64,000 bases of DNA from an uncultured Gemmatimonadaceae bacterium (GTDB taxonomy: Bacteria; Gemmatimonadota; Gemmatimonadetes; Gemmatimonadales; Gemmatimonadaceae). Each line of letters starts with the position of its first letter. Positions within the stretch are counted from its first letter, which is position 1. Of the stretch, positions 1-62,801 are shown in pieces. A model generated the notes under the pieces. That model did not search any database and had not been told where the DNA came from. It saw only the letters and a program-made list of their open reading frames with translations. Made by a program: the position numbers and the translations under genes. The stretch lies in contig CAWHHI010000011.1 in assembly GCA_963829055.1 (NCBI GenBank), positions 576,001-640,000 on the forward strand, given 5' to 3'.

Positions 1-1588
1 AGATGAGCCCCACGCCAGCGCCCACGCGCGGATTCACCGTGTTACCGAACGGGACGTCACCCGCCCACATCTTCCCCGCGTCGACGAACGCCGCGCCACC
101 GAAGCCCATGTATTTCTTGAACCCCGGGAAGATCAGACGCTCCTCGAGGCGCGCTACCGCGCGGCGACCACCAGCGGTTTTCGACCCCTCGTAGCCACGA
201 ATGCCCACGCGATTCGTGCCTAACTGGAGCTGCATCGGGATCGACGTATTCCACCCACCGGCAAACTCCACGCTCGCGATCTGCGTGCGGCGCCTCGTCG
301 GCCGGTAGTACCAGGCAAGTCGCCCTTCCGTGATCAGGTCGGCCCACTCGCCGTCGGAACGCGATGTCTCGACGTTCGACTGCAGTCCGACGAACGACCG
401 TGGCGTTCCCGCACCGGCGTAGATCTGACTCCCGACGAACCACCCGTTGTTGTCCGATCCGAAACCGCGGCCAATCAACGAGCCGAACTGCATTCCACGC
501 CCGACGTCCTGCGCGCCCTCGAGCGCGTCGAAGCTCGTTGCCTTGAAGAACGAGAGCGCACGCGCGCCGAGGATCGCCGCGATGAGCGGTCTGTCCTGGG
601 TACTGTAGCGAGGCCCGAGCGTCGTGTCGGGATCCGCCACGAAACCCTGCTCGGTAATCACGACACCCTCCTCCGCTGGCGCGATGCGATCGGCGCCGAT
701 CTGCGCGCCGGCGAACAGACCGTAGGAGGTGCGCGTGGAGTTGCCGGCGAAGCGATACACGGCGTTGAGCGCCCAGCTTCGACGCGAGACTTCCAGCGAA
801 AGCGGATCGATGTCCTCACCGCGAACGAACGTCTGGTAGCCGTCGACGTCGGCGTACGTGGCCGACCAGGCGAACCTCTGGATCTGCGAGTAGAGCGGTG
901 CCGACAGGGACCCGGCGATCACCTGACCCAACGGGGAGCGTTCGAGCTGGCCGTCGAACAGGTACGGTTTGCCCAATACGTGGTAGTCGGAGAATCGCGC
1001 CGCCCAGCCGTCGCGAAACGCGAAGCCCTGTTGCCACTGCAGCGTCGCCAACATCCCGTAGCCGGCAACGTTGCCGCTGCCGAGCTTGAGGCGCGTCGGC
1101 TTGTTGTCCTTCACGCCGAGGCCGACGATGGTGCGGATGTCGTCGACGGTCGAGAACGACACGACCACGGTTCCACCGGAATCCGGCGTGACGACCGCCC
1201 GTGCGTCCGCCAGATACGGCTGTGCGCGAAGCACGCGCTCGGACTCGGCCAGCAGGGTTTCGGTGCACGCCGCCCCCTGCCTAACGAGAAGGAACGGCTC
1301 CACGGCCGACACGCGCGTCGGCGCACCGGAGAGCAGGAAGCGCAGCACCGGACGCGACCACCAGGTCGACCGTTCGACGATCACCGGCTCCTGCCGCGAG
1401 ACGATCACCATCGAGATCGTCTCGCCATTGCACCGCGGACCCAGGGCAGCGCGTGCCGCCGTAGTAGCGGTGGTGTCCTGCGCGGACAGCGGATTGGCAC
1501 AAATCGCGAGCGCAGTGACAACCGATGCGCTCACGCCTGATGCGGAGCACACACGAGAACGCACGTGAGAACGCACGTGAAACCGCAC
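1..1588 (-). CDS. Outer-membrane protein, POTRA + beta-barrel (BamA/TamA/Omp85-like); runs off the left edge
   Basis: Not in the ORF track (no stop in window). Manual minus-strand translation gives ...VVTALAICANPLSAQ...FLLVRQGAACTETLLAESERVLRAQPYLADA...STVDDIRT...: a signal peptide and a POTRA-like ESERxLR motif, followed by aromatic-rich beta strands. Start uncertain (GTG 1588 or 1534). Confidence 0.65.
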   Translation of the reverse strand, partial: MRFHVRSHVRSRVCSASGVSASVVTALAICANPLSAQDTTATTAARAALGPRCNGETISMVIVSRQEPVIVERSTWWSRPVLRFLLSGAPTRVSAVEPFLLVRQGAACTETLLAESERVLRAQPYLADARAVVTPDSGGTVVVSFSTVDDIRTIVGLGVKDNKPTRLKLGSGNVAGYGMLATLQWQQGFAFRDGWAARFSDYHVLGKPYLFDGQLERSPLGQVIAGSLSAPLYSQIQRFAWSATYADVDGYQTFVRGEDIDPLSLEVSRRSWALNAVYRFAGNSTRTSYGLFAGAQIGADRIAPAEEGVVITEQGFVADPDTTLGPRYSTQDRPLIAAILGARALSFFKATSFDALEGAQDVGRGMQFGSLIGRGFGSDNNGWFVGSQIYAGAGTPRSFVGLQSNVETSRSDGEWADLITEGRLAWYYRPTRRRTQIASVEFAGGWNTSIPMQLQLGTNRVGIRGYEGSKTAGGRRAVARLEERLIFPGFKKYMGFGGAAFVDAGKMWAGDVPFGNTVNPRVGAGVGLI

Positions 1589-1611
1589 TTGTAACTCCGG
1601 GGCTGAGCTGG

Positions 1612-2868
1612 TCAGCGCGCTTGTGCAAGGATCGCGATGATCAAGGCAGCCCATTGCGGACCAAGCCAGCCGCGATCGCCATCGTCGTACGATTCGGACG
1701 TTGCGTGCGCGCCCTGGCCGTCACCGCCACCGTCAATGGTGATCGCGGGAATGCCGAGGCTCATCGGGAAGTTCGCGTCAGTGCTGGACGCCGAGGTTCG
1801 CGCCGTGAAGCCGAGTGCCTTCCCTGCGTCGACCGCGGTCCGAACGATGAACGCACTGTCCGGCTGCGCGCCGGCTGGTCGAATTCCAATCGTGTCCACC
1901 TTGACGGAGATGCGCACTTTCGACGAAGGCCACCGCGCATTCTCGGCCGCGAGTGCGTTTCGCACCGCGGCCTGGAACTTTTTATCGAGGTCGGCCAGCG
2001 CCTTCGCCGACTCTGAACGCAAGTCTACATCCATCGAGCCGCTGGGCGAGATCGTGTTCACCGACGTGCCGCCCTCGATGATCCCGACGTTGAATGTCGC
2101 CTTCGGAGTTGTCGGTACCTGGATGTCCGCGATCGCCGCGATCGCTCGGCCTAACGCGTGGATGGGGCTCGGCATGCCGAAGGCGCCGTAGCTGTGTCCG
2201 CCAGGCCCCTGATACGTGACACGGTAGCGGTTGCTGCCGACGGCGCGACTGGTGACGCCGAGCCCGGTGCCATCCACCGAGATGAAATAGTCGATCTTGC
2301 CCTTGTACTCACGCGTGACGAGGTGCCGGGTGCCGCGGAGGTTGCCCGGCCCTTCCTCGCCGACGTTGCCGACGAAAATCACCGTGCCGGCGGTCGACAG
2401 CTTCTCCATCTGAAATGCGCGCGCGACCGACAGCACCACCGCGAGCCCACGACAATCGTCGCCAATGCCGGGGGCCGTCATCTTCGTGCCCTCGCGCTTG
2501 ACCTTCACGTTCGTGCCTTCGGGAAAGACAGTGTCGAGATGCCCTTCGATCAGCACCGTCTTCCCGCCACCTGTCCCGCGACGTTCCGCGATCACGTTCC
2601 CGATGGAATCCGTCCGCACCGTCAGGCCGAGTGCCTCGAGCCGCCGCTTATACTCGGCCCCCCGGGTCGCCTCCTTGAATGGTGGCGCGGGGATCTCGCA
2701 GATCGACCGCTGCTGGTCGAGTGTCCACGCGTTGTCGGCTTTGATGCGGTCGAGCGTACGCTTGACCGCGGGGTTCGTGGACGGAACGGCCTGAGCCGCG
2801 AGCGACACTGCGGAACACAGCGCGACTGCCGCGCAGGAGAAGAAGACGCGGCCGGTACGAATAATCAT
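1612..2868 (-). CDS. M20/M25/M40 family metallo-hydrolase, exported
   Basis: GHLDTV, GIGDD, VGEEG and GGHS motifs; N-terminal signal peptide. Confidence 0.9.
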   Translation of the reverse strand: MIIRTGRVFFSCAAVALCSAVSLAAQAVPSTNPAVKRTLDRIKADNAWTLDQQRSICEIPAPPFKEATRGAEYKRRLEALGLTVRTDSIGNVIAERRGTGGGKTVLIEGHLDTVFPEGTNVKVKREGTKMTAPGIGDDCRGLAVVLSVARAFQMEKLSTAGTVIFVGNVGEEGPGNLRGTRHLVTREYKGKIDYFISVDGTGLGVTSRAVGSNRYRVTYQGPGGHSYGAFGMPSPIHALGRAIAAIADIQVPTTPKATFNVGIIEGGTSVNTISPSGSMDVDLRSESAKALADLDKKFQAAVRNALAAENARWPSSKVRISVKVDTIGIRPAGAQPDSAFIVRTAVDAGKALGFTARTSASSTDANFPMSLGIPAITIDGGGDGQGAHATSESYDDGDRGWLGPQWAALIIAILAQAR

Positions 2869-5746: not shown

Positions 5747-5929
5747 TACGACGCTGCGAGCGACTGGGCACATCGCCGACGGCTGCCATGCTGCGGCCGC
5801 ACGCTGCCCGCTGCTGCTAGTACGCTCGGTCGACCCACGCGCTGACTCGCAGCGCACTCAGCGTCACCCAGCAACCAGCACGACCACCCAGCAACCAGCC
5901 GCAGTTCCAGTCCCCAGTCCCCAGTCCAC

Positions 5930-6722
5930 CTAACGCTTCGTCAGTAACTCCTCGAACAGCGCAATCGCACGCGGGTCGTTCGACTGGCCGAGCCAGAACA
6001 CCGCATCACGGCGCACCTCGGGGTCCTTGTGCGTGCGCGCCACGCGAATGAGGATCGGGATGCCCTCGTCGTGCGGACGCTGCGACAGCGCGAACACGAC
6101 CTGCTTCTGCACCTCACGATCGCTATCGCCGTCACGCGAGAGCGAGTCGAGGCCTGACGTCGCCGCATCGCCCGCCGCCTGGCCGAGCCAGAAGACCGCC
6201 TGCTTCCGCGTCTCGCGCGGACGATTCTCATCGCGCGCCAGGCGGATGAGTGCCGGCCAGATCACCGCACTGTCGGCGATCGTCGCGGGGAAGATCGCGT
6301 CGCGACCCGCTCGCCCGGGGAGCTTCGTCGCGAGCGACAGCAGGTAGTCCGCTGCCTCCTTCGCTGGCACCGTGCCAATGTCGGTCACGTCAGAGCCGGC
6401 AGCGCGCCAACGTCCGCCGACCACGAAGCGAAGCGCCACGATCTCCCCGTCGCGCTTCTCGAGTACCAGACGCCCCGGACCGTAGTCGCACGCATTGTCC
6501 CACTCGACGTCACGCGTACGGTCGTTGTCGCCCCAATTATTCCGCCAGTTGTTCCCTCGGCTGATACTACCGCGGTTCCCGCAGTACTCGGGGCGCACGG
6601 CGAAGCTGAGTCGCACCGTGCCGTCGCCAGCACGCGAGACACGGTCCGCGATGGACTGCGCGGCGAGCGTGGATGCGCTGGAAGCAGCGAACGCCAGCAG
6701 TTACGAGATATCGTCGCATCAT
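5930..6722 (-). CDS. Exported HEAT-repeat protein 3 (frameshift near 6701)
   Basis: Repeated AVFWLGQ units. The signal peptide MMRRYLV/LLAFAASSASTLAAQ is restored by removing one base; ATG overlaps the upstream stop. Confidence 0.8.
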
Positions 6723-7993
6723 TTGGAGATCCTCTCTTCCAGAAACTTCGAGGCCCGCGGGTCGCGACTCTGGCCGAGCCAGAACGTCGCCTTCGAGCGG
6801 ATCTCGCGATCGGTGTCGTTACGGGCGAGGTCGATGAGCTTGTCCACCGCGGCCGACTCCTGGCGCTGCGAGAGGACGAAGACGTAGTGGTCGCGCAGCT
6901 CACGCGAGTCGAGGCGCGGGTACAGCGCGAGCAGATCGCCTAACGGGGCCGAATTCTTCTGGCCGCGCCAGAACAGCGCCTGCTTGCGAAGATCGACGGG
7001 CTCGTTCGCGTCGAGCACCCGGTCCACCAGCCATCGCTGATCAGCGTCGTCATCCATCTGCGCCACCGCCTGGATGACTTTGTCCTTGAGGTGCCGATCG
7101 TCGAGTCGGCCGTACAGCGAGCGGAGAAACGGCCCGTTGTCGCCATCCCTGTCGAGAAAGCCGAGCGCGAAGATCGCCTGATCGCGAAGGTTCCGGCCTA
7201 ACGTGTCACTCGCCGCGAGCGCTCGGAGCGTCGTGCGGGCACGGTCGTCGTCAGCGTTGCCGAGCCAGAAGATCGAACGCTCGCGAAGCCATTGTTCGCC
7301 GTCGTCACGACGGGCCATCTCGATCAGGGTGGGCACACCCGCGCCGTCGCGGAGCTGAGCGAGCGTCATGATCGCGCCTTCACGCAAGGACTTCGGCTCA
7401 CCGCCGGTCCGTGCCAGGGTGGCGAGCGGTGCCGCCGCCTCGGGCGGCGCGACACCACTCATCCAGAACAGGGCCGAGCTCTGGACGTCGTTAGGCCTGT
7501 TGTCGTCGCGAGCGATGGCAAGCAGCTGGCGCCAGATATCCGCGCTGTCCGCGACCGCCGCCGCCATGACCGCGGAGCTCGCGGCACGACCGCTCGCCGT
7601 GGACGCGACCCCGAGGAAATACGCGGCCGCCGCTGGCGCCGAGACGGTACCCAGGTCGGTCGCGGACGGATCGGCTCGACGCGTGGAGCCGATGTACGTT
7701 CTCACCGCCGTGACCTCGCCGTCACGCCGCGTGATCACGGAGCGGGCAGGCCCGAAGAAACAGTTCGCGTTCGAGTGGCCGTGCCCGCGCATCGACGGAT
7801 ACACCGTGATCAGCCTGCCTAACGCCGCCACGTCGGCACCGTCGCCACAGACATCCGGGCGGGCGGCGTACGTCATCGTGACGCTGCCATCCTTCACCGC
7901 GTTCACGCGGTCTGCCAGCGACTGGGCCGCGAGGTGTGGTGCGGCGACCAGCGCCGCCAGCACCACCCCGCGAATCGAGAGCGTCGTGCGCAT
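6719..7993 (-). CDS. Exported HEAT-repeat protein 2
   Basis: Signal peptide MRTTLSIRG...LAAQ; repeats ALFWMS, SIFWLG, ALFWRGQ, ATFWLGQSRDPRA. Confidence 0.85.
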   Translation of the reverse strand: MRTTLSIRGVVLAALVAAPHLAAQSLADRVNAVKDGSVTMTYAARPDVCGDGADVAALGRLITVYPSMRGHGHSNANCFFGPARSVITRRDGEVTAVRTYIGSTRRADPSATDLGTVSAPAAAAYFLGVASTASGRAASSAVMAAAVADSADIWRQLLAIARDDNRPNDVQSSALFWMSGVAPPEAAAPLATLARTGGEPKSLREGAIMTLAQLRDGAGVPTLIEMARRDDGEQWLRERSIFWLGNADDDRARTTLRALAASDTLGRNLRDQAIFALGFLDRDGDNGPFLRSLYGRLDDRHLKDKVIQAVAQMDDDADQRWLVDRVLDANEPVDLRKQALFWRGQKNSAPLGDLLALYPRLDSRELRDHYVFVLSQRQESAAVDKLIDLARNDTDREIRSKATFWLGQSRDPRASKFLEERISK

Positions 7994-8003: not shown

Positions 8004-9437
8004 CTACTTGGAGATGAGGTCTTCCAGGAACTTCGCGGCGCGTGGGTCACGGGACTGCCCGAGCCAGAACACCGCCTTGCTGCGGAGCTCCTTGTCCTTG
8101 TCGCTCTTCGCAATGCTCATGAGCTTGTCGAGCGCCTTGGCATCTCGCTTCTGCGAGAAGACGAAGATCAGCTGCTCCTTGATCTCGGCGTCCGTCATCT
8201 TGTCGTACAGCGAGGAGAACGCCTCGATCGATGTTCCACCGTTCTGGCCCGCCCAGAACAGCGCCTGCTTCCGGATCTCGATGCTCTGCTTCGGATCGAG
8301 CGCGATGTTCATGATCCACTCGCCGTTGCCGAAGCCGCGCTGCTGCGAGAGCGAGAAGATGATCTTGTCCTTGAGCGCGTCGCTCTTCACTCGACCGAAA
8401 AGGGTCTTCAAATAATTCGCGTTGTCCGCTGATCCATTCTGGCCGAGCCAGAAGATCGCCTGCTCACGGAGCTCCTCGTTCTCGCTTTCACGCTCGGCGA
8501 AGTCACGCAGGATCTGCCCAGCTCGCGAGCTCTGCTGCTGCGATAGCGCGAACAGCGCCTTGTTCTTGATCTCGTTGTTGTCCGAGTTCTTCAGGATGTC
8601 CTCGAGCAGCGTGACGGCACGATCGGAACGGACCTGGCCCAACCAGAACACGGCCTGCTCGCGCGTCTCCTGATCCGGATCGGTCTTCGCCGCCTGCACG
8701 AGAATGTCGGCTGCCTCGTCACCACCCTTCTGCGACACGAGGAAGACGGCTTTGCGTCGCAGCACGTACGAGCAGGCGTCACGGCGAGCCAGGACCTTCT
8801 TGAGAATCGGCATCGCGCGCTCGCTATCCATCTGCAGCAGGGCGTTCAGTGCGGCCACACGCTCGTCATCGTCGTCGTCCTCGACGCACTTCGTACCCTG
8901 GGTACCCTTCCGACTGCCGGTGGCGCTCGGTGACTGATCGCCACTGTCCTTGCCACCCTCGGCCGCGGCGAAGATCTCGGCCGCGCAATTGGCATCACCA
9001 CGTTGGGCGAGCTCGCCACAGACCCGCGTCCCGAGTGCCTTGGCATCGGAGAGGTCCGCGTTAGGGTAGTTCCGGCCGAGCGCCTTGAGTACGTCGCGTG
9101 CCTCGCGCATGCGGTCCACGCTACCCGTCTGATACAGCGAGAACGCGCGGAAGTACATCGCGGACGGCGCCGACGGCGACTTGGGATAGCGATCCGTAAC
9201 CGCACGGAACAGGTCAGCGGCCTGCGTGTAGCTGCGCCGGTTGAGCGTCTCACGTGCTTTGCGGTACAGCGAATCGGCGGGGTCGCCCTGACGGAGCGCC
9301 GGCACTTCCGGCCCGGCGCGCAAGCCACCGAGGTCCACGCGCGAGTACGACACACCTTGCGTCATGGCGGAGGTGGGAACCGCAGCCAGCGTCATCGCGG
9401 CAACAGCGGCAACGATCGTGATCGTCTTCATTGTCAT
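8004..9437 (-). CDS. Exported TPR (BamD-like) + HEAT-repeat protein 1
   Basis: Signal peptide; ADSLYRKARETLN...YPKS TPR-like segment; multiple AVFWLGQ HEAT units. Confidence 0.85.
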   Translation of the reverse strand: MTMKTITIVAAVAAMTLAAVPTSAMTQGVSYSRVDLGGLRAGPEVPALRQGDPADSLYRKARETLNRRSYTQAADLFRAVTDRYPKSPSAPSAMYFRAFSLYQTGSVDRMREARDVLKALGRNYPNADLSDAKALGTRVCGELAQRGDANCAAEIFAAAEGGKDSGDQSPSATGSRKGTQGTKCVEDDDDDERVAALNALLQMDSERAMPILKKVLARRDACSYVLRRKAVFLVSQKGGDEAADILVQAAKTDPDQETREQAVFWLGQVRSDRAVTLLEDILKNSDNNEIKNKALFALSQQQSSRAGQILRDFAERESENEELREQAIFWLGQNGSADNANYLKTLFGRVKSDALKDKIIFSLSQQRGFGNGEWIMNIALDPKQSIEIRKQALFWAGQNGGTSIEAFSSLYDKMTDAEIKEQLIFVFSQKRDAKALDKLMSIAKSDKDKELRSKAVFWLGQSRDPRAAKFLEDLISK

Positions 9438-15355: not shown

Positions 15356-15447
15356 ACCTAACTTCGCGGCGTGCGCCGGTCCATATTGCGATCGTTCAGC
15401 CGCCCGCGCGGTGGCCACTCCGTCTTTTATTCCGGCGCGGACATTTA

Positions 15448-16771: not shown

Positions 16772-16774
16772 AGC

Positions 16775-48819: not shown

Positions 48820-48979
48820 GATCCGATGACCTAACGAGAACGGTGAGCGCCTGCGAACGGGGCGGGAATCTGAAAGCTAGCAGAAGCGCTAGCAGCAAGG
48901 CGACCAGCGACCAGCACGAGCGACCAGCCACAAGCTGCAGTGATCAGTTCCCGTTGCGGTTCCCCGTTCCCGGTTCCCG

Positions 48980-53319: not shown

Positions 53320-54282
53320 ATGGCTGGACCAACGACCTCTTCGTCCACGCCGACTGGCGGCGTGCTCGAATCCCTCTCCAATGACCTCGCCGGCGCCGTG
53401 GACCGCGCCGGCCAATCCGTCGTCGCCATCCACGCGCGACGTCGCATCCCCGCGAGCGGCATTCACTGGCGCCCGGGCATCATCGTCGCCGCGCATCACA
53501 CCATTCAGCGCGACGAGGAGATCACGGTCTCACTCGCCGACGGCTCGAGCGTCGCCGCCACGCTCGTCGGCCGCGATCCCACGACCGATCTCGCCGTCCT
53601 CAAAGTCGACGAAGCGAAGGTGCCCGTCGCCTCGTTCGCCGAGTCGTCCGGTCTCCGCGTTGGCGCACTCGTCCTCGCGCTCGGCCGGCCCGGCTCGGCC
53701 ATCACCGCGAGCCTCGGCGTCGTCAGCGCGATCGGTGGTGAGTGGCGCACGTGGCATGGCGGAACGATCGATCGCTTCGTGCGACTCGATGTCTCCATCT
53801 ATGACGGCTTCTCCGGCGGTCCGCTCATCGACGCCGGCGGACGCGTGCTCGGACTCAACACGTCCGGCCTCTCGCGCGGCGCGGCGCTCGCGATTCCGGC
53901 GGAGACCGTGAACCGCGTCGTCGATCAACTGCTGAAGAGCGGGCGCGTCGCGCGCGGCTACCTCGGTCTCGGCATGCAGGCAGTCCGGCTTCCGGCCGCG
54001 CTCGTCGAGCGACTGCGAATGCCTAACGACATCGGACTCATGGTCGTGAGCGCGGAACCTGGCGGTCCCGGCGACCGCGCCGGTATTCTCATCGGCGACG
54101 TGCTCATCGCCGTCGGCGACACACCGGTCTCCGACCCGGCCGAGCTGCTGGCGTTCCTCGGTGGTGATCAGATCGGCAAGCCGGTAACCGCGAAGCTGAT
54201 CAGAGCCGGAGAACCGACCACCGTGTCCATCACCGTCGGCGAACGGCCGCAGCAGTCGCGCGGCTCCCGGAGGGGCAGATGA
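53320..54282 (+). CDS. S1C trypsin-like serine protease with PDZ domain (HtrA-like), no signal peptide
   Basis: AAHH, RDPTTDLAVL, GFSGGPL, RGYLG, AGILIGDVL; GGAG RBS. Confidence 0.88.
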   Translation: MAGPTTSSSTPTGGVLESLSNDLAGAVDRAGQSVVAIHARRRIPASGIHWRPGIIVAAHHTIQRDEEITVSLADGSSVAATLVGRDPTTDLAVLKVDEAKVPVASFAESSGLRVGALVLALGRPGSAITASLGVVSAIGGEWRTWHGGTIDRFVRLDVSIYDGFSGGPLIDAGGRVLGLNTSGLSRGAALAIPAETVNRVVDQLLKSGRVARGYLGLGMQAVRLPAALVERLRMPNDIGLMVVSAEPGGPGDRAGILIGDVLIAVGDTPVSDPAELLAFLGGDQIGKPVTAKLIRAGEPTTVSITVGERPQQSRGSRRGR

Positions 54283-54914
54283 CCAGCGGCCTCTCCGCGA
54301 CCAGCGCCACGACCGAACCGCTCGGGCGCGAGCTGGCCGATCTCGCATCCGTGCTTCGACAGAGTACCGTCGAAGTGCGGACGGGCGGGACGGGATCCGG
54401 TTCGGGGATCATCTGGACCACGAACGGACTCATTGTGACGAACGCGCACGTCGCCCGCACCGAGCGGGCGACGATCATCCTCTGGGATGGCCGAACATTC
54501 GACGGCGTGGTCACAGCGCGCGACCCGCGGCGTGACCTCGCGACGATCGCCATCGACGTCGGATCGGCGATACTTCCTGCCGCCGCGATCGGCCATCCCA
54601 CGGACCTGCGCACCGGGGACGTCGTCGTCGCGCTCGGCAACCCGTTAGGCATCGCCGGCGCGCTGGCGCTCGGCGTCGTTCACGTGGTCGAACAGCGTCG
54701 CGGCGGTCCGCGGTGGATTCGCGCGGACATTCGGCTCGCGCCCGGGAATTCGGGCGGTCCGCTGGCCGACGCGCACGGACGCGTCGTCGGTGTGAACACG
54801 CTCATCGCCAATGGACTTGGCGTCGCCGTTCCGGTGACGACGGTCGCGCGATTCCTTGGCGACGCCGAAGTGGAGCGCGCGAACGTCAAATACCGAGGCG
54901 ACCGAGCGGCGTGA
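54279..54914 (+). CDS. S1C trypsin-like serine protease without PDZ
   Basis: GSGSG, VTNAHV, RDLA, GNP, PGNSGGPL. Confidence 0.88.
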   Translation: MTSGLSATSATTEPLGRELADLASVLRQSTVEVRTGGTGSGSGIIWTTNGLIVTNAHVARTERATIILWDGRTFDGVVTARDPRRDLATIAIDVGSAILPAAAIGHPTDLRTGDVVVALGNPLGIAGALALGVVHVVEQRRGGPRWIRADIRLAPGNSGGPLADAHGRVVGVNTLIANGLGVAVPVTTVARFLGDAEVERANVKYRGDRAA

Positions 54915-55568: not shown

Positions 55569-55644
55569 ACCGCCCGACAGCGGCGCAGGACACTGGACAC
55601 ACCGCGTAGTGCGCGAGCCCATCCCTTGCGTTAGGACCCGGGTA

Positions 55645-56178
55645 ATGGGGCAACCGCGACAATGGCTCGGACGATGGACGGCGCTGACGTGGATCACGGG
55701 ATTCGCGGGACTCGGCGCGGGCGCGCAAGTGCGGTCGAGCCCGGTCGACCTCAGCCGTCCCGTATCCATGGTGGAGCCCGCATCTGGCGACGTTTCCGGG
55801 TCATGGGCCGGGACGTTCAGCCTCGACTCGACGTGGGGGCTCGATCAACGCGCGTCGACGCGGTCCATACCAGCACGACTGCACTTCAATCCGGTCGGTG
55901 ACGCGTCGCCCACCACGTCCAGCGCGCGGTCGGTTCACCCCGGCACATTCGAGATCGACTTCTCGCGTTTCGGGATCACACTCTCGACGCAGGAAGCGCT
56001 CGGCTGGAGCGCGACGCCCGATTCGATGCGCGCGGTGCTCAACCCGACGGTGGACCACGGCCTGGTGGAGGTTCACGGCGTCTTTCGCGGCGAGACAATC
56101 TCCGGCACGTGGAGTTACAAGAGCGACCCCGGCGGGGCGAGCGGCACGTTCGAGGTGAAGCGAGTCCAGTCGCGTTAG
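55645..56178 (+). CDS. Hypothetical exported beta-rich protein
   Basis: Signal-like N-terminus, DVSGSWAGTF, ISGTW...GTF. Confidence 0.6.
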   Translation: MGQPRQWLGRWTALTWITGFAGLGAGAQVRSSPVDLSRPVSMVEPASGDVSGSWAGTFSLDSTWGLDQRASTRSIPARLHFNPVGDASPTTSSARSVHPGTFEIDFSRFGITLSTQEALGWSATPDSMRAVLNPTVDHGLVEVHGVFRGETISGTWSYKSDPGGASGTFEVKRVQSR

Positions 56179-56205
56179 GCGCACGGAGTTGTCATCGCGC
56201 GCAGC

Positions 56206-56474: not shown

Positions 56475-58007
56475 CTACCGTGATGACTGACGCAGCAGCC
56501 TCCCTGCTTCCACGACGATGTCCGGCACCGCATCCACGTCAGCCACCGACGTTCGGAAATTCACGATGCACGCCCGCAGCGCGAACACGCCGTCGATGAC
56601 CGCGTTCGACAGGTAAATGGCGCCGCCCTCCTGCAATCGCGTCAGGAGCGTCGTGTTCAACTCGTTCAGATATTTCGTGCGCTCGTCAGGCGACAGCGAC
56701 GGGGACAGGTCCCGCGGAACGTAGCGGAACGTCGTGATGCTCAGCCCGTGCGTCAGTGCCTCGAGCTCCGGGTGCGCCTCGACCTTCTCGTACATACGCC
56801 GACTCAGCGCGATGTCATCGGCGATGAGCTTCGTGTAGCCCTCGCGGCCAACCTGCTTGAAGGCGAGCCACACCTTGAGCGCACGGAAGCCGCGCGAGTT
56901 CTGCGGACCCAGCTCGTGGAAGTTGATCGCCGGGTCTTCGGCCACGTCGGGAAAATGGTAGTACGACGGCTGGTGCGAGAACGCCGCACGTAACGCGTTA
57001 GGGTCACGAACCAGCGCGCAACCCGCCTCGAGTGGCGCATAGAACCACTTGTGTGGGTCGACCGCCACCGAATCCGCATCGCCTAACGCCGCAAGCGTCG
57101 CCGGTGCGCCAGGCACTCGCGCAGCCGGCGCGCCGTACGCCCCGTCGACGTGGAACCACACGCGCTCCTCTCGACACAGCGTCGCGATGTCCGGCAGCGG
57201 GTCCACCGCGCCCGTCGCCACAGAGCCTCCTGTACCAATCACGAGGAACGGCAGGAACCCCGCGCGACGATCTTCGGCCATCCGCTCGCGCAGTCGGTCC
57301 ATACGCATGCGCTGCTCGCTATCGACTTCGATCCACCGCACGGCATCGTTGCCGAGTCCGTAGAGCTCGACCGCTTTCTGGATCCACGTGTGCGTCTCGG
57401 CCGATGTGTACACCGTGAGCTTCGCGCCGTCGCCTGCAACCATTCCCTTCGCTCGCAGGTCCCACCCGGCGCGCGTCGCGTACGCCGTGCGTGCGGCGAG
57501 GAAGCAGACCATGTTCGCCATGTTCCCGCCGCTCACGAACAGCCCGCCACACGATGCCGGGAAGCCGAGGAACTCCGCCACCCACCGCACTGCTTGTCGC
57601 TCGATCTCCGTCGCGCTGGGCGACAGCGACCACGCGCCGACGTTCGGGTTGACCGCGGCGGCCAACATGTCGGCGAGAATGCCGATCGGGGCTGCCGATG
57701 CCGTGATGTAGCCGAAGAAGCGCGGATGTCCGTTGAACGTCGAATTGTCGAACAACACGGACGCCGCGTCGTTCAACAGCTTCGCCGGATCGTCGCCGGT
57801 TTCAGGAAGGCGACCGTCCCCCAACAGCGCGCGGATCGCGCTCGGCGTGGTGTGAGGGGCGACCGGCCGATCGGAAAGCGACGCGAGCAGAGCGGCAATG
57901 CGATCGACGAGCGCGTGTCCGGCCGCGCGGAATTGCGCGGGGTCCATCTCCAATGACGCATCCCGCCGGTCGCTCACAGCGGCGACGTGGTCCTGCGTGG
58001 TGCTCAC
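56475..58007 (-). CDS. Group II PLP-dependent decarboxylase (aromatic-L-amino-acid / diaminobutyrate decarboxylase-like)
   Basis: HPRFFGYI, SGGNMAN, TGAVDPL, FHVDGAYG, DPHKW, SRGFRALKVW. Confidence 0.92.
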   Translation of the reverse strand: MSTTQDHVAAVSDRRDASLEMDPAQFRAAGHALVDRIAALLASLSDRPVAPHTTPSAIRALLGDGRLPETGDDPAKLLNDAASVLFDNSTFNGHPRFFGYITASAAPIGILADMLAAAVNPNVGAWSLSPSATEIERQAVRWVAEFLGFPASCGGLFVSGGNMANMVCFLAARTAYATRAGWDLRAKGMVAGDGAKLTVYTSAETHTWIQKAVELYGLGNDAVRWIEVDSEQRMRMDRLRERMAEDRRAGFLPFLVIGTGGSVATGAVDPLPDIATLCREERVWFHVDGAYGAPAARVPGAPATLAALGDADSVAVDPHKWFYAPLEAGCALVRDPNALRAAFSHQPSYYHFPDVAEDPAINFHELGPQNSRGFRALKVWLAFKQVGREGYTKLIADDIALSRRMYEKVEAHPELEALTHGLSITTFRYVPRDLSPSLSPDERTKYLNELNTTLLTRLQEGGAIYLSNAVIDGVFALRACIVNFRTSVADVDAVPDIVVEAGRLLRQSSR

Positions 58008-58189: not shown

Positions 58190-59140
58190 ATGTCGGAGCG
58201 TAGGCGCGCGTTGCGGACGGTCGCCCTGACGATCGGCATCGTCGCGTTCGCATCGGCGCCCGCGACTCACGCGTTAGGTGCGCAGCCGCCGCACCGTTCG
58301 ATCCTCGCCGAGAAGATGCGCGCGGACCTGCGCCGTATCGCTGACGACACCCGAGGGGTAGTCGGCGCGCAGGTCATCGATCTCGCGACCGGCGATCGCA
58401 TTGGCGTGAACGACACGCTGACGTTCCCGCAGGGCAGCGCGATCAAGATCCCGCTGCTGATCGAGCTGTACCGACAGGACGCGGTCGGTCAACTCAAGCT
58501 CTCGACGCGCGTGCCGGTTCGTCAGGCGGATCGTACTGGCGGCAGCGGTCTCCTCCTCAACCTTGGCGACGGCACGAGCGAGCTGTCACTCGGCGATCTC
58601 GCCATGTTCATGATCACCGTGTCCGACAACACGGCGACGAACATGCTCATCGACCGCGTGGGCATGGACAAGGTGAACGGGACGATGCGCGAGCTCGGCG
58701 TGCCTCAGGTCAAGCTGCAGCGGAAGATGATTCGTCCGAAGGACAGCGCGGCGGGAAACGAGAACATCGCGACGCCAACCGGGGCGGCAACGATCATGGC
58801 GAAGATCGCGCGATGCGAGCTCCCGATGCCGAAGGAGCGGTGTGGTGAGCTGCGGAAGCTGCTCGAGATTCCGAAAGGCGGACCGATCGAGGCGTCGGTC
58901 CCGGAAGGCGTGCGGGTCGCCTGGAAACCGGGGGACATCGAGGGCGTGAACACGGCATGGGGTCTCGTGGATCTTCCGGGCCGCCCGTATGTGGTAGTGG
59001 GGATGGTCAACTACAGCGACGCGAGCGACGCGGAGCGCGCGCTCAGGCGCATTGCCGACGCTGCCTACGGATACTTCCACGTCCTGGCGCGATCGACACC
59101 GTACGGGGCGCGAGTGCCGCTCGAGGTCATGCCGAAGTAG
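58190..59140 (+). CDS. Class A beta-lactamase-like serine hydrolase, exported
   Basis: FPQGSAIK (SxxK), SDNTATN, KPG; signal peptide. Confidence 0.85.
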   Translation: MSERRRALRTVALTIGIVAFASAPATHALGAQPPHRSILAEKMRADLRRIADDTRGVVGAQVIDLATGDRIGVNDTLTFPQGSAIKIPLLIELYRQDAVGQLKLSTRVPVRQADRTGGSGLLLNLGDGTSELSLGDLAMFMITVSDNTATNMLIDRVGMDKVNGTMRELGVPQVKLQRKMIRPKDSAAGNENIATPTGAATIMAKIARCELPMPKERCGELRKLLEIPKGGPIEASVPEGVRVAWKPGDIEGVNTAWGLVDLPGRPYVVVGMVNYSDASDAERALRRIADAAYGYFHVLARSTPYGARVPLEVMPK

Positions 59141-60647: not shown

Positions 60648-60650
60648 TGC

Positions 60651-62801
60651 CTATCGCCCCACAGAGATCGTCATTCCCGCATAGACGGTCCGCCCAGGCG
60701 AGGGCTCGAAGTAGCGGCCAGCCGCAGCATTCACCACGATCGACCCCGCATACGCGCGGTCGAACAGATTCGACACACCGAACACCGGCACCAGCGCCAT
60801 CCCCGCAACCGTCACACGCCCACCGATCCGCGCGTTCGCCACCTCCCAACCACCCGCGCGCAGCGTGTTCGCGTCGTCCATGAACATCCCGCCCGCTGTC
60901 TGTCCTTCCACCGTCCCGAACCAGCCGCGCCAGTTGTACGTCACGTAGCCTTGCAACTGCTGGTTAGGCACGCCCGGAATCGTGTTCCCACTGAAGTCGT
61001 TCGCGCCGACGGTGTAGTCCTCGAACGCGAAGTCCGAATAGCTGTACGACGCACCGATCGTCGTCGCGCCTAACGCCGATGCCAGGCCCAGCTCGCCGCC
61101 GCGCCGCCGCGTCGACCCCGCGTTCCGGAAGTACCGCCGCCCCGCCCCGCCCGGCACCTCGAATGGAATGAGCTCGTCCCTGACGCGCGTCGCGAACAGC
61201 GCCGCGTCATAGCGCAGTCTACCGAACGCTACTCCTTTCACCCCCGCCTCGAACGTGGTCGCGTACTGCGGGTCGAGCGTCGGGTTGATCCCCGCGGAGC
61301 CATCGGGCTTGTTCGCGAGCTCCGTCGCCGTCGGCGTCTCGAACGCGGTCGAGAGGTTCGCGTACACGGAGTGCAGCGCGCCGACGCGCGCGACGAGGCC
61401 GACCAGCGGGCTCACCGCGTGCAGCGTGCGCTCGCCCGAGTCGTCCGGATTCGTCGCCGTGATGAGGTGATCGCCGACCCGGAACTGCACGTAGTCGGCG
61501 CGCACGCCTAACGTCAGACGGTAGCGGTCCGAGAATGCGATCTCGTCCCGCACGAACGGCCCGAGCCCCGAGACCCGCTCACGCTGGTCGAGCTGCACCA
61601 CGCCGCGCTCACGCGAGACGACGGGACACGCCGCCGTCGGCTGCGTGAGCGGCGGCACGAAGTTGCAGTTCGCGAAGTTCTTGCGCTCGTCGTCCTGAAA
61701 CTGCGCGTCCATGCCCGCACTCACACGATGGTCGAGCCCGAGGAAGCGAACCGGAACGGTCACGCGCGCGTTTGCACCGGACGTCGTGCGGTCGACATCC
61801 ACGATCGCGAACGTGAGCGGATTGTCGAGCGTGCGCCAACCGAAGTGCGCCGCGGCGGACCACTCCACCCCGCTCGACGAGCGTCGGTTCGCGGTCAGGC
61901 CGAGCTGCGACTGCTGCACCGCCTTGCGCGTCGCCTTCCGGATCTGCGCCGGATCCGCCTGACGCGGATCACTCTTCATCTCGGCCGCCGTGAGCGCGCC
62001 CGGATTCTCCGCCGTCGGCGTGTCGTACCCGGTGTACGTGAGCGCGAGATCGCCGGCCTCGCCCGACAGCATCGCCCGCGCCGTCCCACTCGTGGATTGT
62101 TGCCGAGCGTAGAGGCGGTACCCGTCCTGGTCGGTGCGCGAGAGGTCACCCTGGTACTGAATCGCACCCGCCGTCCCACCGGCAGCGCCCGCCCAACGCT
62201 TCAGGCCATACGAACCGCCAGTCCCCGTCACACGACCCGCGATCGCGTCAGATGGCGGATCCGCCGTGCGAACCTCGACGACTCCGCCCGCCGCGTTTCC
62301 GTACAGAGAGCCCGCGCTCCCACGAATGACCTCGATGCTCCCAACCGACTCGAGATCGAGGTAGTCGATGGGCGTCTGCCCATCGGGTAGCGTGAGCGGA
62401 ATGCCGTCGCGCACCACCCGAACGCCGCGCACGCCGAACGCCGATCGCGCGCCGAAGCCTCGGATGGAGATGCGCGGGTCCTGCGTGGGGTTGCTCCGGT
62501 TGGCAACGGCGAGGCCCGGGATCGCCAGCAGCATCTCGTCGAACGAGACATGACGGAGAGACGGTCGGCCACTGTCCGGCACAATCCGCGAGATCGCGTA
62601 CGGGAGGTCGAGCGTCGGGCGCGCGGCGTCACGCGTGACGGTGACCTGCACGGGCGGCAGCGTCGACGGCCGCGGTCTGGGCGGCGTGGTGTCTTGCTGT
62701 GCGTCGAGGCGGTGCGTGATGCCGACACTCATCGACGCAACACACAGCGCGGTGATGTTGAGCCCCGTGAACCTTCGACCCGCGAACGTCTGTATCGGCA
62801 C
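60651..62801 (-). CDS. TonB-dependent receptor, YncD/PqqU-like
   Basis: QDPRISIRGFGARSAFGVRGVRVVRDGIPLTLPDGQ, EVIRG..SLYGNAAGGV, FETPTATEL, YFEPSPGR; start uncertain. Confidence 0.85.
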   Translation of the reverse strand: MPIQTFAGRRFTGLNITALCVASMSVGITHRLDAQQDTTPPRPRPSTLPPVQVTVTRDAARPTLDLPYAISRIVPDSGRPSLRHVSFDEMLLAIPGLAVANRSNPTQDPRISIRGFGARSAFGVRGVRVVRDGIPLTLPDGQTPIDYLDLESVGSIEVIRGSAGSLYGNAAGGVVEVRTADPPSDAIAGRVTGTGGSYGLKRWAGAAGGTAGAIQYQGDLSRTDQDGYRLYARQQSTSGTARAMLSGEAGDLALTYTGYDTPTAENPGALTAAEMKSDPRQADPAQIRKATRKAVQQSQLGLTANRRSSSGVEWSAAAHFGWRTLDNPLTFAIVDVDRTTSGANARVTVPVRFLGLDHRVSAGMDAQFQDDERKNFANCNFVPPLTQPTAACPVVSRERGVVQLDQRERVSGLGPFVRDEIAFSDRYRLTLGVRADYVQFRVGDHLITATNPDDSGERTLHAVSPLVGLVARVGALHSVYANLSTAFETPTATELANKPDGSAGINPTLDPQYATTFEAGVKGVAFGRLRYDAALFATRVRDELIPFEVPGGAGRRYFRNAGSTRRRGGELGLASALGATTIGASYSYSDFAFEDYTVGANDFSGNTIPGVPNQQLQGYVTYNWRGWFGTVEGQTAGGMFMDDANTLRAGGWEVANARIGGRVTVAGMALVPVFGVSNLFDRAYAGSIVVNAAAGRYFEPSPGRTVYAGMTISVGR

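What the first reader, a model, noticed from the sequence alone, without database searches (positions are those of the whole stretch)
219..61512. Pervasive non-palindromic motif (G)CCTAAC(G)/(C)GTTAGG(C), about 1 per kb on both strands, overriding codon usage
Seen: by eye I count 34 CCTAAC (219, 1280, 2150, 5929, 6939, 7197, 7818, 9936, 12715, 13183, 15357, 16774, 17804, 18295, 18733, 22111, 24144, 24789, 25057, 25536, 26101, 29509, 36564, 36830, 40032, 41336, 42391, 44052, 48830, 50476, 54022, 57082, 61069, 61507) and 33 GTTAGG (7490, 9060, 9800, 12069, 16336, 17259, 20848, 22221, 27252, 28490, 30506, 34417, 35919, 37858, 38019, 39419, 43775, 43898, 45424, 45813, 47479, 48155, 49245, 50532, 50784, 51625, 52132, 54644, 55630, 56174, 56997, 58273, 60963). 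Many extend to GCCTAACG. Nearly every CTAA/TTAG tetramer I found sits in this context (a few exceptions, e.g. ~10879, 20131, 29124, 34167, 56350), whereas base composition alone predicts roughly one in eight. Inside genes it is read in all frames using codons rare in a high-GC genome: GCG-TTA-GGC (Ala-Leu-Gly), CCT-AAC (Pro-Asn), GTT-AGG (Val-Arg). Established: about 1/kb density without strand bias is typical of DNA-uptake sequences (Neisseria DUS, Pasteurellaceae USS), and cyanobacterial HIP1 is similarly iterated; Chi and KOPS are strand-skewed. GTTAGGC also fits the integron core GTTRRRY. Inference: a genome-wide cis-acting signal (uptake/self-recognition, methylation-linked repair, recombination or nucleoid-protein site) that I do not recognise as described for this lineage.
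Basis: partly seen in the sequence, partly recalled or inferred. Interest (0 to 1): 0.88.

Follow-up and report, generated by a model that had tools for sequence, protein, structure and literature searches.

The report
Hyper-abundant GCCTAACG genome word
This soil bacterium writes the eight-letter DNA word GCCTAACG about once per kilobase through ordinary genes, against its own codon habits; the word recurs in a second phylum and in phages and matches the integron cassette core, but what reads it is unknown.

Summary
All 67 listed CCTAAC/GTTAGG sites exist, against 5.7 expected. In the window, 67 of 72 CTAA/TTAG tetramers lie inside the word.

The full word is GCCTAACG. The genome holds 5,004 copies, against 19-258 expected. 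The two strands are balanced, there is no replication polarity, and all four stop-free frames are used. A synonymous-shuffle null is exceeded 8-fold and Pro-Asn dipeptides are inflated 1.38-fold. Sites are conserved 55% against a 19% background between congeners. Close pairs are avoided. The word is missing from foreign or chimeric blocks.

It is enriched in about 31 of 77 genera of the family, which is probably Gemmatimonadaceae. It is also enriched in 5 of 71 sampled Chthoniobacterales-type genomes of another phylum, with a 9-mer dialect, and in a bona fide phage contig. It equals the R' core of local integron attC sites, but the dispersed copies are not attC sites and IntI does not track it.

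No canonical DNA methyltransferase was found in this genome. RecBCD/AddAB are mostly not found. ComEC and PilT are universal and so uninformative.

Best reading: a DUS/USS-class DNA-level "self word" read by an unidentified protein. The mechanism is open.

The parts
219..224 (+). word copy, octamer GCCTAACT; in gene, read xCG-TTA-GGC
1280..1285 (+). GCCTAACG; in gene, read GTT-AGG
2150..2155 (+). GCCTAACG; in gene, TTA-GGC
5929..5934 (+). ACCTAACG; supplies the stop codon (TAG on - strand) of gene 5930-6616
6939..6944 (+). GCCTAACG; in gene, TTA-GGC
7197..7202 (+). GCCTAACG; in gene, TTA-GGC
7490..7495 (-). GCCTAACG; in gene, CCT-AAC
7818..7823 (+). GCCTAACG; in gene, TTA-GGC
9060..9065 (-). 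CCCTAACG; in gene, CCT-AAC
9800..9805 (-). GCCTAACA; in gene, CCT-AAC
9936..9941 (+). GCCTAACG; in gene, TTA-GGC
12069..12074 (-). GCCTAACG; in gene, TTA-GGC
12715..12720 (+). GCCTAACA; outside my called genes
13183..13188 (+). ACCTAACG; in gene, CCT-AAC
15357..15362 (+). ACCTAACT; outside my called genes
16336..16341 (-). GCCTAACG; in gene, TTA-GGC
16774..16779 (+). GCCTAACG; supplies the stop codon of gene 16775-17236 (-)
17259..17264 (-). GCCTAACG; outside my called genes
17804..17809 (+). GCCTAACG; in gene, TTA-GGC
18295..18300 (+). CCCTAACG; in gene, TTA-GGC
18733..18738 (+). GCCTAACG; in gene, TTA-GGC
20848..20853 (-). GCCTAACC; in gene, CCT-AAC
22111..22116 (+). GCCTAACG; in gene, TTA-GGC
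22221..22226 (-). ACCTAACG; at the 3' end (TAA) of gene 22222-22893 (-), overlapping the next gene
24144..24149 (+). GCCTAACG; supplies the TAA stop of gene 23699-24148 (+)
24789..24794 (+). GCCTAACA; outside my called genes
25057..25062 (+). GCCTAACT; in gene, TTA-GGC
25536..25541 (+). GCCTAACG; in gene, GTT-AGG
26101..26106 (+). GCCTAACA; in gene, TTA-GGC
27252..27257 (-). ACCTAACG; outside my called genes
28490..28495 (-). GCCTAACG; in gene, CCT-AAC
29509..29514 (+). GCCTAACG; outside my called genes
30506..30511 (-). GCCTAACG; outside my called genes
34417..34422 (-). GCCTAACG; in gene, CTA-ACG
35919..35924 (-). GCCTAACG; in gene, CTA-ACG
36564..36569 (+). TCCTAACG; outside my called genes
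36830..36835 (+). GCCTAACG; outside my called genes
37858..37863 (-). GCCTAACG; in gene, GTT-AGG
38019..38024 (-). GCCTAACG; outside my called genes
39419..39424 (-). GCCTAACG; in gene, TTA-GGC; kept at the same place in congener G001
40032..40037 (+). GCCTAACG; in gene, CCT-AAC; kept in G001
41336..41341 (+). GCCTAACG; in gene, CCT-AAC; kept in G001
42391..42396 (+). GCCTAACA; in gene, CCT-AAC
43775..43780 (-). GCCTAACA; in COX1 gene, TTA-GGC
43898..43903 (-). GCCTAACA; in COX1 gene, TTA-GGC
44052..44057 (+). GCCTAACG; in COX1 gene, CCT-AAC; not present in G001/G003 orthologues
45424..45429 (-). GCCTAACG; in gene, TTA-GGC; absent in G001, one-off in G003
45813..45818 (-). GCCTAACA; in gene, TTA-GGC
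47479..47484 (-). GCCTAACG; in gene, TTA-GGC; kept in G001 and G003
48155..48160 (-). ACCTAACG; in gene, CTA-ACG
48830..48835 (+). ACCTAACG; outside my called genes
49245..49250 (-). GCCTAACG; in gene, CTA-ACG; kept in G001 and G002
50476..50481 (+). ACCTAACG; in gene, TTA-GGC
50532..50537 (-). GCCTAACG; in gene, CCT-AAC; two-off in G001/G002
50784..50789 (-). GCCTAACG; in gene, CCT-AAC; kept in G001 and G002
51625..51630 (-). CCCTAACG; in gene, CTA-ACG
52132..52137 (-). GCCTAACG; in gene, CTA-ACG; one/two-off in G001/G002
54022..54027 (+). GCCTAACG; in gene, CCT-AAC; kept in G001
54644..54649 (-). GCCTAACG; in gene, TTA-GGC
55630..55635 (-). TCCTAACG; outside my called genes
56174..56179 (-). 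GCCTAACG; supplies the TAG stop of gene 55645-56178 (+)
56997..57002 (-). CCCTAACG; in gene, CCT-AAC
57082..57087 (+). GCCTAACG; in gene, TTA-GGC
58273..58278 (-). ACCTAACG; in gene, TTA-GGC
60963..60968 (-). GCCTAACC; in gene, CCT-AAC
61069..61074 (+). GCCTAACG; in gene, TTA-GGC
61507..61512 (+). GCCTAACG; in gene, TTA-GGC

Best explanation
GCCTAACG is a DNA-level 'self word' of the same class as the uptake sequences of Neisseriaceae (DUS) and Pasteurellaceae (USS). The logo is [G>A>C]C[C>>A]TAAC[G>>A].

An unidentified sequence-specific protein reads double-stranded DNA in either orientation. DNA carrying the word gains a small advantage per copy. That advantage pushes point mutations creating the word to fixation wherever the protein code tolerates them, and keeps existing copies.

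The mode I think most likely is preferential uptake and recombination of word-bearing DNA during natural transformation, that is, a molecular drive with diminishing returns for a second copy nearby.

Shown: the DNA-level directional force, its strength, its anatomy and its distribution. Inferred: that a protein reads the word, and that uptake is the process.
For: Enrichment is about 20- to 260-fold, depending on the null.

Anatomy. The strands are balanced at 2457/2547 with no replication polarity. There is no information outside the 8 bp. All four stop-free frames are used and the two stop frames are avoided.

Codon and protein effects:
- 39% of Pro-Asn dipeptides are written CCT-AAC, against 5.6% expected.
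- 57% of all TTA codons sit in TTA-GGC.
- The Pro-Asn dipeptide is 1.38x over-represented.
- The synonymous-shuffle null gives about 560 hexamers against 4,451 observed.

Conservation and turnover. Against a congener at 78% nucleotide identity, 38 sites are shared, 31 are found only in G000 and 25 only in G001. That is 55% of G000 sites kept, against 19% of random 8-column windows.

Spacing is even. Observed/expected is 0.29 below 50 bp, 1.2-1.4 at 300-1500 bp and 0.75-0.85 at 2-10 kb. The same pattern holds in the other phylum.

Dialect. The other phylum uses the 9-mer GCCTAACGA, with A at 0.81 of the extra position.

Foreign DNA. The word is missing from foreign or chimeric blocks and from an island with a plasmid-type RepA.

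Uptake hardware is encoded: ComEC, PilT and type IV pilins.
Against: ComEC (270 of 301 genomes) and PilT (81 of 81) are just as present in word-poor genera, so they support nothing specific.

No receptor candidate emerged. The one orphan pilin tested is conserved only within the genus.

The same core word is abundant in another phylum. Independent uptake systems are not expected to converge in this way.

A phage contig with portal and terminase genes carries 22 octamers in 12.4 kb. As I recall, MGEs of Neisseria and Haemophilus are DUS/USS-poor; I did not check this.

Close inverted pairs are depleted. By recall, DUS/USS often form terminator pairs.

The avoidance range is only about 200-300 bp, which is shorter than typical uptake fragments.

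No uptake experiment exists for any member.
Confidence: 0.35

Rival explanations
1. Self-tag against an intracellular DNA-degrading or defence activity. This is Chi-like logic in the broad sense. A translocating enzyme spares or repairs DNA when it meets the word within about 1-2 kb. Chromosomes, and the phages that must survive in these cells, therefore fill up with evenly spaced copies in both orientations. The reader is a mobile system, which would explain the patchy, cross-phylum distribution.
For: Spacing is even, with a deficit of gaps over 2 kb.

A bona fide phage contig is saturated at 2.6 hexamers per kb. Two further phage-like contigs carry about 1 per kb.

The distribution is patchy. 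It includes word-poor species inside rich genera (g54: G120, G275, G297; g53: G296) and 5 of 71 genomes of another phylum.

Foreign blocks lack the word.
Against: There is no strand skew with replication.

RecC was not found in 5 of 5 genomes. An AddB-like protein was found in only 16 of 301 genomes, and in none of the 7 genomes of rich genus g14. PDDEXK_1 has no hit in the rich genome G062.

No candidate reader gene was found. 881 kb of two rich genomes of the other phylum shared no unusually similar non-housekeeping gene with G000.

A 48-kb word-free block would be unprotected if it truly belongs to this chromosome.
Confidence: 0.2
2. The word is linked to integrons. It is the attC R' core (C-GTTAGGC) because its reader is tuned to that universal core. 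The reader could be an uptake or capture function for gene cassettes, or a tyrosine-recombinase-like DNA binder. Different phyla therefore arrive at the same word.
For: attC sites of a cassette array in the same order read GCCTAACA...CGTTAGGC, with the R' octamer present in 14 of 16 copies.

G000's own integron has attC-like sites ending CGTTAGGC or CGTTAGGT.

Integron integrase scores over its cut-off in 14 of 21 relatives.

The last-base preference of the word (C > T > G > A) has the two pyrimidines on top, as in GTTRRRY.

The core is identical in two phyla.

Only 16 of 32,768 strand-collapsed octamers fit C-GTTRRRY (my arithmetic).
Against: IntI is found in word-rich and word-poor genomes alike, in both phyla.

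Other permitted R-box variants (GTTAGAC, GTTAAGC, GTTGGGC) are not enriched.

The copies have no L boxes and no flank conservation.

CCTAAC...GTTAGG pairs at attC distance are fewer than random.

The preferred base 5' of CGTTAGGC differs: G/T in the genome against C/T in attC.
Confidence: 0.12
3. The word is a binding site of an abundant nucleoid-associated or chromosome-organising protein. Regularly spaced sites would be selected for chromosome structure.
For: Density along the chromosome is uniform at 18.2 per 20 kb. Neighbours closer than about 200 bp are excluded, and spacing is regular at 0.3-1.5 kb. The site is orientation-free.
Against: Nothing explains why phages would need it at equal or higher density. 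Nothing explains why closely related species do without it. The one lineage-typical small DNA/chromatin-type protein I met (SWIB domain) is present in 77 of 81 genomes whatever their word content.
Confidence: 0.1
4. The word is a by-product of methylation-linked or very-short-patch-type biased repair, which converts near-cognate sequences into it. This is one idea raised for HIP1.
For: HIP1 is a comparably iterated octamer associated with methyltransferases (abstracts of PMC4390886 and of bioRxiv 10.64898/2026.06.24.733823, seen in the listing).
Against: G000 and the rich genome G062 have no match at E<=1e-8 to N6_N4_Mtase, N6_Mtase or DNA_methylase, while the poor genomes G120 and G297 have them.

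N6_Mtase is present in 34 of 81 genomes without relation to word content.

The 18 single-mismatch variants of the inner hexamer sit near background, at 0.38-1.04x on the order-2 null. The exceptions are GCATAACG (11.5x) and GCCTGACG (2.2x). No neighbour is drained.

The word is not palindromic.

Other methyltransferase families and Vsr were not searched.
Confidence: 0.05
5. The word is an artefact of sequencing, polishing or binning.
For: The genome is an 86%-complete assembly with chimeric or foreign blocks and apparent frameshifts.
Against: Copies respect reading frames and are conserved at orthologous sites between species. They occur in hundreds of genomes and in contigs of runs from 16 studies dated 2017-2025. 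They are absent from foreign blocks of the same assembly.
Confidence: 0.01

Closest known systems
DNA uptake sequences: DUS of Neisseriaceae (receptor: minor pilin ComP) and USS of Pasteurellaceae
   Same: A short non-palindromic word at about 1 per kb on both strands. It lies inside genes in any usable frame, overrides codon and amino-acid usage, and is conserved between species. It has dialects between lineages, is poor in foreign DNA, and is more evenly spaced than chance. The comparison with DUS/USS properties rests on my recall and on the abstracts listed (PMC1939737, PMC2817400, PMC3630211).
   Different: The word is 8 bp rather than 9-12 bp. The same core is shared by two phyla. Close inverted pairs are depleted rather than used as terminators. 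At least one phage is saturated. Uptake bias, competence and a receptor are all untested or unknown.
HIP1 (GCGATCGC) of cyanobacteria
   Same: An octamer iterated about once per kb inside genes. It is conserved and quasi-periodic, its function is unresolved, and it is patchily lost in some lineages (abstracts).
   Different: HIP1 is a palindrome recognised by orphan methyltransferases. This word is asymmetric, and no canonical DNA methyltransferase domain was found in this genome.
Integron attC core site (R' box GTTRRRY, inverse core RYYYAAC)
   Same: It is letter-for-letter the R' end of attC sites in this order, CGTTAGGC, and of the few attC-like sites in this genome.
   Different: Dispersed copies lack the R''/L''/L' architecture and any partner at attC distance. 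They sit in conserved housekeeping genes. They do not follow the distribution of IntI.
Chi (crossover hotspot instigator) and KOPS
   Same: An over-represented asymmetric octamer that marks 'own' DNA.
   Different: There is no leading-strand skew: 52-57% on the one contig with a clear replication switch. The density and fold-enrichment are much higher. RecC was not found, and AddB-like was found in only 16 of 301 genomes.

Membership tests
DUS/USS-type uptake sequence | Short asymmetric word, hundreds to thousands of copies, both strands about equally | tested here: met
   5004 copies, 2457 forward and 2547 reverse
DUS/USS-type uptake sequence | Occurs inside genes at the expense of codon and amino-acid preference | tested here: met
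   8-fold over the synonymous-shuffle null; Pro-Asn dipeptide 1.38x; 57% of TTA codons lie in the word
DUS/USS-type uptake sequence | Shared by related genera, with dialects | tested here: met
   31 of 77 genus representatives have more copies than the reversed control.: 9-mer dialect GCCTAACGA in the other phylum
DUS/USS-type uptake sequence | DNA carrying the word is taken up or transformed preferentially | not testable with these tools
   needs uptake assays in a cultured member
DUS/USS-type uptake sequence | A dedicated receptor (ComP-like minor pilin) co-distributed with the word | tested here: inconclusive
   4 pilin-like genes found by a strict pattern. The orphan pilin tested is conserved beyond its N-terminal helix only in the congener
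DUS/USS-type uptake sequence | Competence machinery encoded | tested here: met
   ComEC and PilT are present, but equally so in word-poor genera, so this does not discriminate
DUS/USS-type uptake sequence | Frequent close inverted pairs acting as terminators (feature recalled, not checked in a paper) | tested here: not met
   pairs closer than 150 bp are 2-3 times rarer than random in every orientation
HIP1-type iterated palindrome | Palindromic word | tested here: not met
   GCCTAACG differs from its reverse complement CGTTAGGC
HIP1-type iterated palindrome | Cognate DNA methyltransferases | tested here: not met
   no PF01555, PF02384 or PF00145 match at E<=1e-8 in G000 or G062. Other families not searched
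Chi / KOPS polar signals | Orientation skewed with replication | tested here: not met
Chi / KOPS polar signals | RecBCD or AddAB present | tested here: not met
   RecC 0 of 5. AddB-like 16 of 301; in G000 the AddAB-like genes are split over several frames
Integron attC site | R''-L''...L'-R' imperfect inverted repeat of 50-150 bp | tested here: not met
   no flank information; only 3 attC-like pairs in the whole genome
Integron attC site | Core sequence GTTRRRY / RYYYAAC | tested here: met
   the word contains GTTAGGC/GCCTAAC and equals the R' octamer of attC sites in L113
Integron attC site | Co-occurrence with integron integrase | tested here: not met
   IntI is over its cut-off in 14 of 21 relatives irrespective of word content. 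IntI-like genes occur in 3 rich genomes and 1 of 2 poor genomes of the other phylum

The most novel reading that the evidence does not exclude
The word equals the integron attC R' core because its reader is aimed at that universal core. One version is a DNA-uptake or ssDNA-capture function that preferentially brings in gene cassettes, which integron integrases recombine as single strands. The genome-wide enrichment would then be the drive by-product of that preference. This would explain why unrelated soil phyla (Gemmatimonadota and Verrucomicrobiota) and their phages converge on the same octamer.
Probability: 0.1. Interest if true: 0.95.

Novelty: new variant of a known kind. Interest (0 to 1): 0.8.

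Why it matters
Sequence-specific "self words" of this strength are established in only two bacterial families (DUS and USS), plus the unexplained HIP1 of cyanobacteria.

Here, one octamer marks large parts of an abundant, mostly uncultured soil family, a subset of a second phylum, and at least one phage. It is identical to the most conserved piece of integron recombination sites.

Finding its reader would do one of two things. It could reveal a new uptake or self-recognition system in soil bacteria, bearing on how genes and cassettes move in soil. Or it could reveal a new kind of genome-wide DNA mark.

Practically, the word is a sharp binning and contamination marker. It exposed chimeric blocks in this assembly.

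Tried and rejected
1. Maximal-order Markov ranking did not surface the word, because its information sits in the 4- to 6-mers. Lower orders and a masked background did surface it.

2. Apparent single-strand runs of the word in G061 and G222 were a listing artefact. Both strands are present.

3. The single-strand runs in G015, G013 and G017 are integron cassette arrays, a different phenomenon.

4. Candidate readers tested without result:
- Integron integrase.
- The orphan pilin.
- ComEC and PilT.
- Methyltransferase families.
- RecB-type nuclease, RecC and AddB.
- SWIB-domain protein.

5. I looked for a cross-phylum shared gene. I ran tblastn of my 6,420 G000 gene calls against 368 kb, then 513 kb, of two rich genomes of the other phylum. 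The top outliers were housekeeping enzymes (LepA, urocanase, PurL, EF-Tu, RecA and others). The exception was a SerRS+DUF4126 pair that lies in a low-GC, probably chimeric, contig start of G000. Only about 13-17% of each genome was sampled, so this is weak negative evidence.

6. The viral-contig scan used a same-orientation pair pattern. It mostly returned integron arrays, for example L207, L213 and L230. Only L252/L253, L197 and L223 were shown to be phage-like.

7. Laying contigs of four runs was too noisy to compare variation inside and outside the word. Only 40 of 565 differences were shown, none inside a word core.

8. Stop codons are not a special home of the word. About 32% of TAA stops lie in it, against 34% of all TAA. 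About 11% of TAG stops lie in it, against 13% of all TAG.

9. Literature.
- The octamer strings occur in 478 papers. The 20 listed look like primers or oligos by title (listing only).
- No paper held both 'Gemmatimonad' and 'uptake sequence'.
- PMC2843746 and PMC4390886 hold none of my search terms.
- No listed hit concerned Gemmatimonas.

I corrected them and resent them to the same tools.

Full report
**1. The observation**

Dinucleotide-preserving shuffles of the window give 5.67 (sd 2.46, largest 15 of 100).

Of 72 CTAA/TTAG tetramers in the window, 67 lie inside the hexamer.

The window is ordinary chromosome. It holds a cytochrome c oxidase operon, TonB-dependent receptors, transporters, two-component systems and peptidases.

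The window is C11:576001-640000 of a 7.78-Mb, 20-contig, 66.7% GC assembly. The assembly is 86% complete with 4% contamination. The best named relatives of its COX1 are Gemmatimonadales MAGs at 64-68% identity.

**2. What the word is**

Genome-wide there are 7,103 hexamers. 80% of all TTAG lie in GTTAGG.

The logo adds G before the hexamer (0.79) and G after it (0.90). Beyond that there is only codon periodicity. The word is therefore GCCTAACG, with 5,004 copies.

Expectation is 102-258 under order-1 to order-3 Markov models. It is 19-58 when all copies are masked out of the background.

Flank variants are also enriched: ACCTAACG 30x, GCCTAACA 26x and CCCTAACG 16x. The 18 one-letter variants of the inner hexamer sit near background, with two exceptions. 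GCATAACG has 583 copies (11x) and behaves as a dispersed word of its own with no longer context. GCCTGACG is at 2.2x.

**3. It acts on DNA, not on protein or RNA**

A local codon-score classification of 7,101 sites gave:
- 1,643 xCG-TTA-GGC
- 1,109 CCT-AAC
- 653 CTA-ACG
- 431 GTT-AGG
- 52 and 37 in the two frames that would read TAA or TAG
- 3,176 unclassified, meaning near gene ends, intergenic or ambiguous

Codon and dipeptide effects:
- 39% of Pro-Asn dipeptides are written CCT-AAC, against 5.6% expected.
- 9.6% of Leu-Gly dipeptides are written TTA-GGC, against 0.36% expected.
- 57% of all TTA codons sit in the word.
- The Pro-Asn dipeptide is 1.38x over-represented.
- Within-gene synonymous shuffles give 533-580 hexamers, against 4,451 observed.

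Octamer density is 0.56 per kb in my called genes and 0.70 per kb elsewhere. My home-made gene caller covers only 73% of the genome, so that contrast is rough.

The word supplies many stop codons. Its share of TAA/TAG stops (about 32% and 11%) equals its share of all TAA/TAG (34% and 13%).

**4. Strand and spacing**

There are 2,457 forward and 2,547 reverse copies.

I saw no polarity in 50-kb bins of seven contigs. On C16, which has a clear GC-skew and gene-strand switch, GTTAGG is on the leading strand in only 52-57% of cases. It shows a slight sense-strand preference, 53% genome-wide.

Copies avoid each other. Observed over expected is:
- 0.29 below 50 bp
- 0.41-0.63 up to 200 bp
- 1.2-1.4 from 300 to 1500 bp
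- 0.75-0.85 from 2 to 10 kb

**5. Conservation and turnover**

119 kb of a congener aligns at 78% identity. There, 38 sites are shared, 31 are found only in G000 and 25 only in G001. So 55% of G000 sites are kept, against 19% of random 8-column windows. Non-shared partners differ at 1-6 letters (examples in the window).

**6. Foreign DNA lacks it**

The three largest word-free gaps are C6:6854-55038, C11:7377-44055 and C6:591809-623330. At least the first two carry second copies of single-copy housekeeping genes (FtsK, AroC, FolD, PepA, DAHP synthase). These copies are about 47-59% identical to copies elsewhere in the genome. GreA (C6 end) and IlvD (C11) found no second copy. The blocks are therefore chimeric joins, contamination or large transfers.

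A smaller word-free island holds a plasmid-type RepA.

The first 15 kb of C19 has GC 0.59. Its SerRS+DUF4126 pair is 74-75% identical to a genome of the other phylum, so it looks foreign too.

**7. Distribution**

All 7 genomes of the genus hold 2,501-5,112 copies.

I scanned 301 genomes of 77 genera of the family. I computed by hand the ratio of the word to its reversed control for the first-listed genome of each genus:
- 31 genera are at or above 1, and 11 of those are at or above 5 (g1, g14, g29, g31, g42, g45, g53, g54, g60, g67, g78).
- 42 genera are at or below 0.3, which is the baseline.
- 4 genera lie between.

Rich genera contain poor species: g54 (G120, G275, G297) and g53 (G296).

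These tallies include seven genomes flagged unpublished (G021, G047, G048, G146, G260, G278, G305). No conclusion rests on them.

Prompted by earlier notes of this scan, I tested another phylum myself. A Chthoniobacterales MAG reached through one search has 293 copies against 161 control. In 71 genomes of its order, 5 exceed the control:
- G377: 2,512 against 260
- G341: 2,140 against 332
- G366: 948 against 290
- G354: 352 against 235
- G309: 293 against 161

In 368 kb of G341 (GC 0.57) the hexamer stands at 1.36 per kb. Close pairs are avoided in the same way. The dialect is GCCTAACGA, with A at 0.81 of the extra position.

**8. Phages**

Many are integron cassette arrays (L207, L213, L230).

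L252/L253 is one 17-kb contig with GC 0.62. It encodes a portal protein and large and small terminase subunits. It carries 32 hexamers and 22 octamers in 12.4 kb, on both strands, including inside the terminase and portal genes. Its dialect is the Gemmatimonadaceae one.

L197 (endolysin) and L223 (head protein, protease) carry about 1 hexamer per kb.

**9. The integron coincidence**

In a genome of another family of the order, a cassette array has attC sites reading GCCTAACA-L''...L'-CGTTAGGC. The R' octamer is therefore the word.

G000 has an integrase-like gene at C20:208041-208958, scoring 265.7 bits, just over its cut-off. Four attC-like sites lie beside it.

The dispersed copies are nonetheless not attC sites:
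- Flanks carry no conservation.
- Only 3 attC-like pairs exist in the genome.
- IntI is over its cut-off in 14 of 21 relatives, whether rich or poor. IntI-like genes occur in rich and poor genomes of the other phylum.
- Other GTTRRRY variants are not enriched.

**10. Mechanism**

*Methylation or VSP-type repair* is disfavoured. No N6_N4, N6 or C5 methyltransferase domain was found at E<=1e-8 in G000 or in the rich genome G062, although the poor genomes G120 and G297 have them. N6_Mtase occurs in 34 of 81 genomes without relation to the word. No neighbour of the word is depleted.

*A Chi-type role* is disfavoured. There is no skew. RecC was found in 0 of 5 genomes. AddB-like was found in 16 of 301 genomes.

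*Competence hardware* is encoded but universal in the family: ComEC in 270 of 301 genomes and PilT in 81 of 81.

What remains is a DNA-level force mediated by an unknown reader. I rank the readings as follows:
- Uptake or recombination drive: 0.35. The anatomy matches DUS/USS point by point.
- An intracellular self-tag: 0.2. This best fits the phage and the patchy cross-phylum spread.
- An integron-linked reader: 0.12.
- A nucleoid site: 0.1.

**11. Literature**

I found no description of this word. The papers opened were PMC2843746 and PMC4390886 (term searches only, no hits) and PMC8618304 (one passage, which lists Gemmatimonadota among phyla with integrons).

DUS, USS and HIP1 properties used for comparison come from my recall and from the abstracts listed.

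Noticed in passing
window 52961-53125; further copies near window 4611-4729 and 59139-59264: A hairpin-forming repeat of about 125 bp (TGTCATTCCGAGCG...CGCTCGGAATGACA; DNA fold -46 kcal/mol). It has 361 blastn hits in this genome and many in congeners. It looks like a MITE/REP-like element family, and it explains the top k-mers of the maximal-order Markov ranking.
   Followed up: partly
L151:12008-12985 (- strand; G000 C20:208008-208985) and L151 about 6790-11190: An integron-integrase-like gene (TIGR02249, 265.7 bits, just over its cut-off). Four attC-like sites on its 3' side end in CGTTAGGC or CGTTAGGT. On the other side there is a run of 11 same-orientation word copies with no attC features.
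   Followed up: partly
L113:1-12000 (G015:C95), also G013:C3, G015:C43/C80, G017:C113: Large integron cassette arrays in word-poor genomes of other families of the order. In those genomes, many of the listed GCCTAACG copies sit in attC sites.
   Followed up: partly
L145-L147 (G000 C6:6854-55038), L143-L144 (C11:7377-44055), L148-L149 (C6:591809-623330), G000 C19:1-15000: Word-free blocks of 31-48 kb at contig ends. The C6:6854-55038 and C11 blocks hold divergent second copies of housekeeping genes (FtsK, AroC, FolD, PepA); for the C6-end block the one gene tested (GreA) found no second copy. The low-GC start of C19 has genes 74-75% identical to a genome of another phylum. These are probably chimeric assembly, contamination or large transfers.
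   Followed up: partly
window 38123-39217 and 39156-40082; L159:1162-8049 (G000 C15): Genes split over overlapping frames. A PQQ-dependent dehydrogenase falls in two ORFs. An AddB-like and an AddA-like gene each fall in three. These are frameshifts, from either assembly errors or pseudogenes.
   Followed up: no
whole genome (not in one place): A second dispersed word, YGCATAACG, has 583 copies, about 11x over expectation. It differs from the main word at one inner position and has no longer conserved context.
   Followed up: partly
L130-L139 (G010:C1:1-200000): In a weakly enriched genus, 27 of 34 hexamers have GTTAGG on the strand that is both GC-skew-positive and gene-rich. This is a much stronger orientation bias than in G000. 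Whether it follows transcription or replication was not separated.
   Followed up: partly
G000 C11:56177-56398 (outside the window): A small SWIB/MDM2-domain protein, 64% identical to one in a genome of the other phylum. The domain was found in 77 of 81 family genomes and in 0 of 14 control genomes.
   Followed up: partly
L252:4740-8426: In the word-saturated phage contig, a row of small same-strand ORFs repeatedly ends in the word's TAA (for example ORFs ending at 5060, 5602 and 8426). Word orientation follows gene direction in this contig but runs against it in L197 and L223.
   Followed up: no
window 4892-5746; L303:1502-3274; L316:1768-2193: DUF72 proteins recur: one in the window, and two in the 368 kb sampled from the other phylum, one of them 61% identical to a G000 copy. 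I did not test for any link to the word.
   Followed up: no
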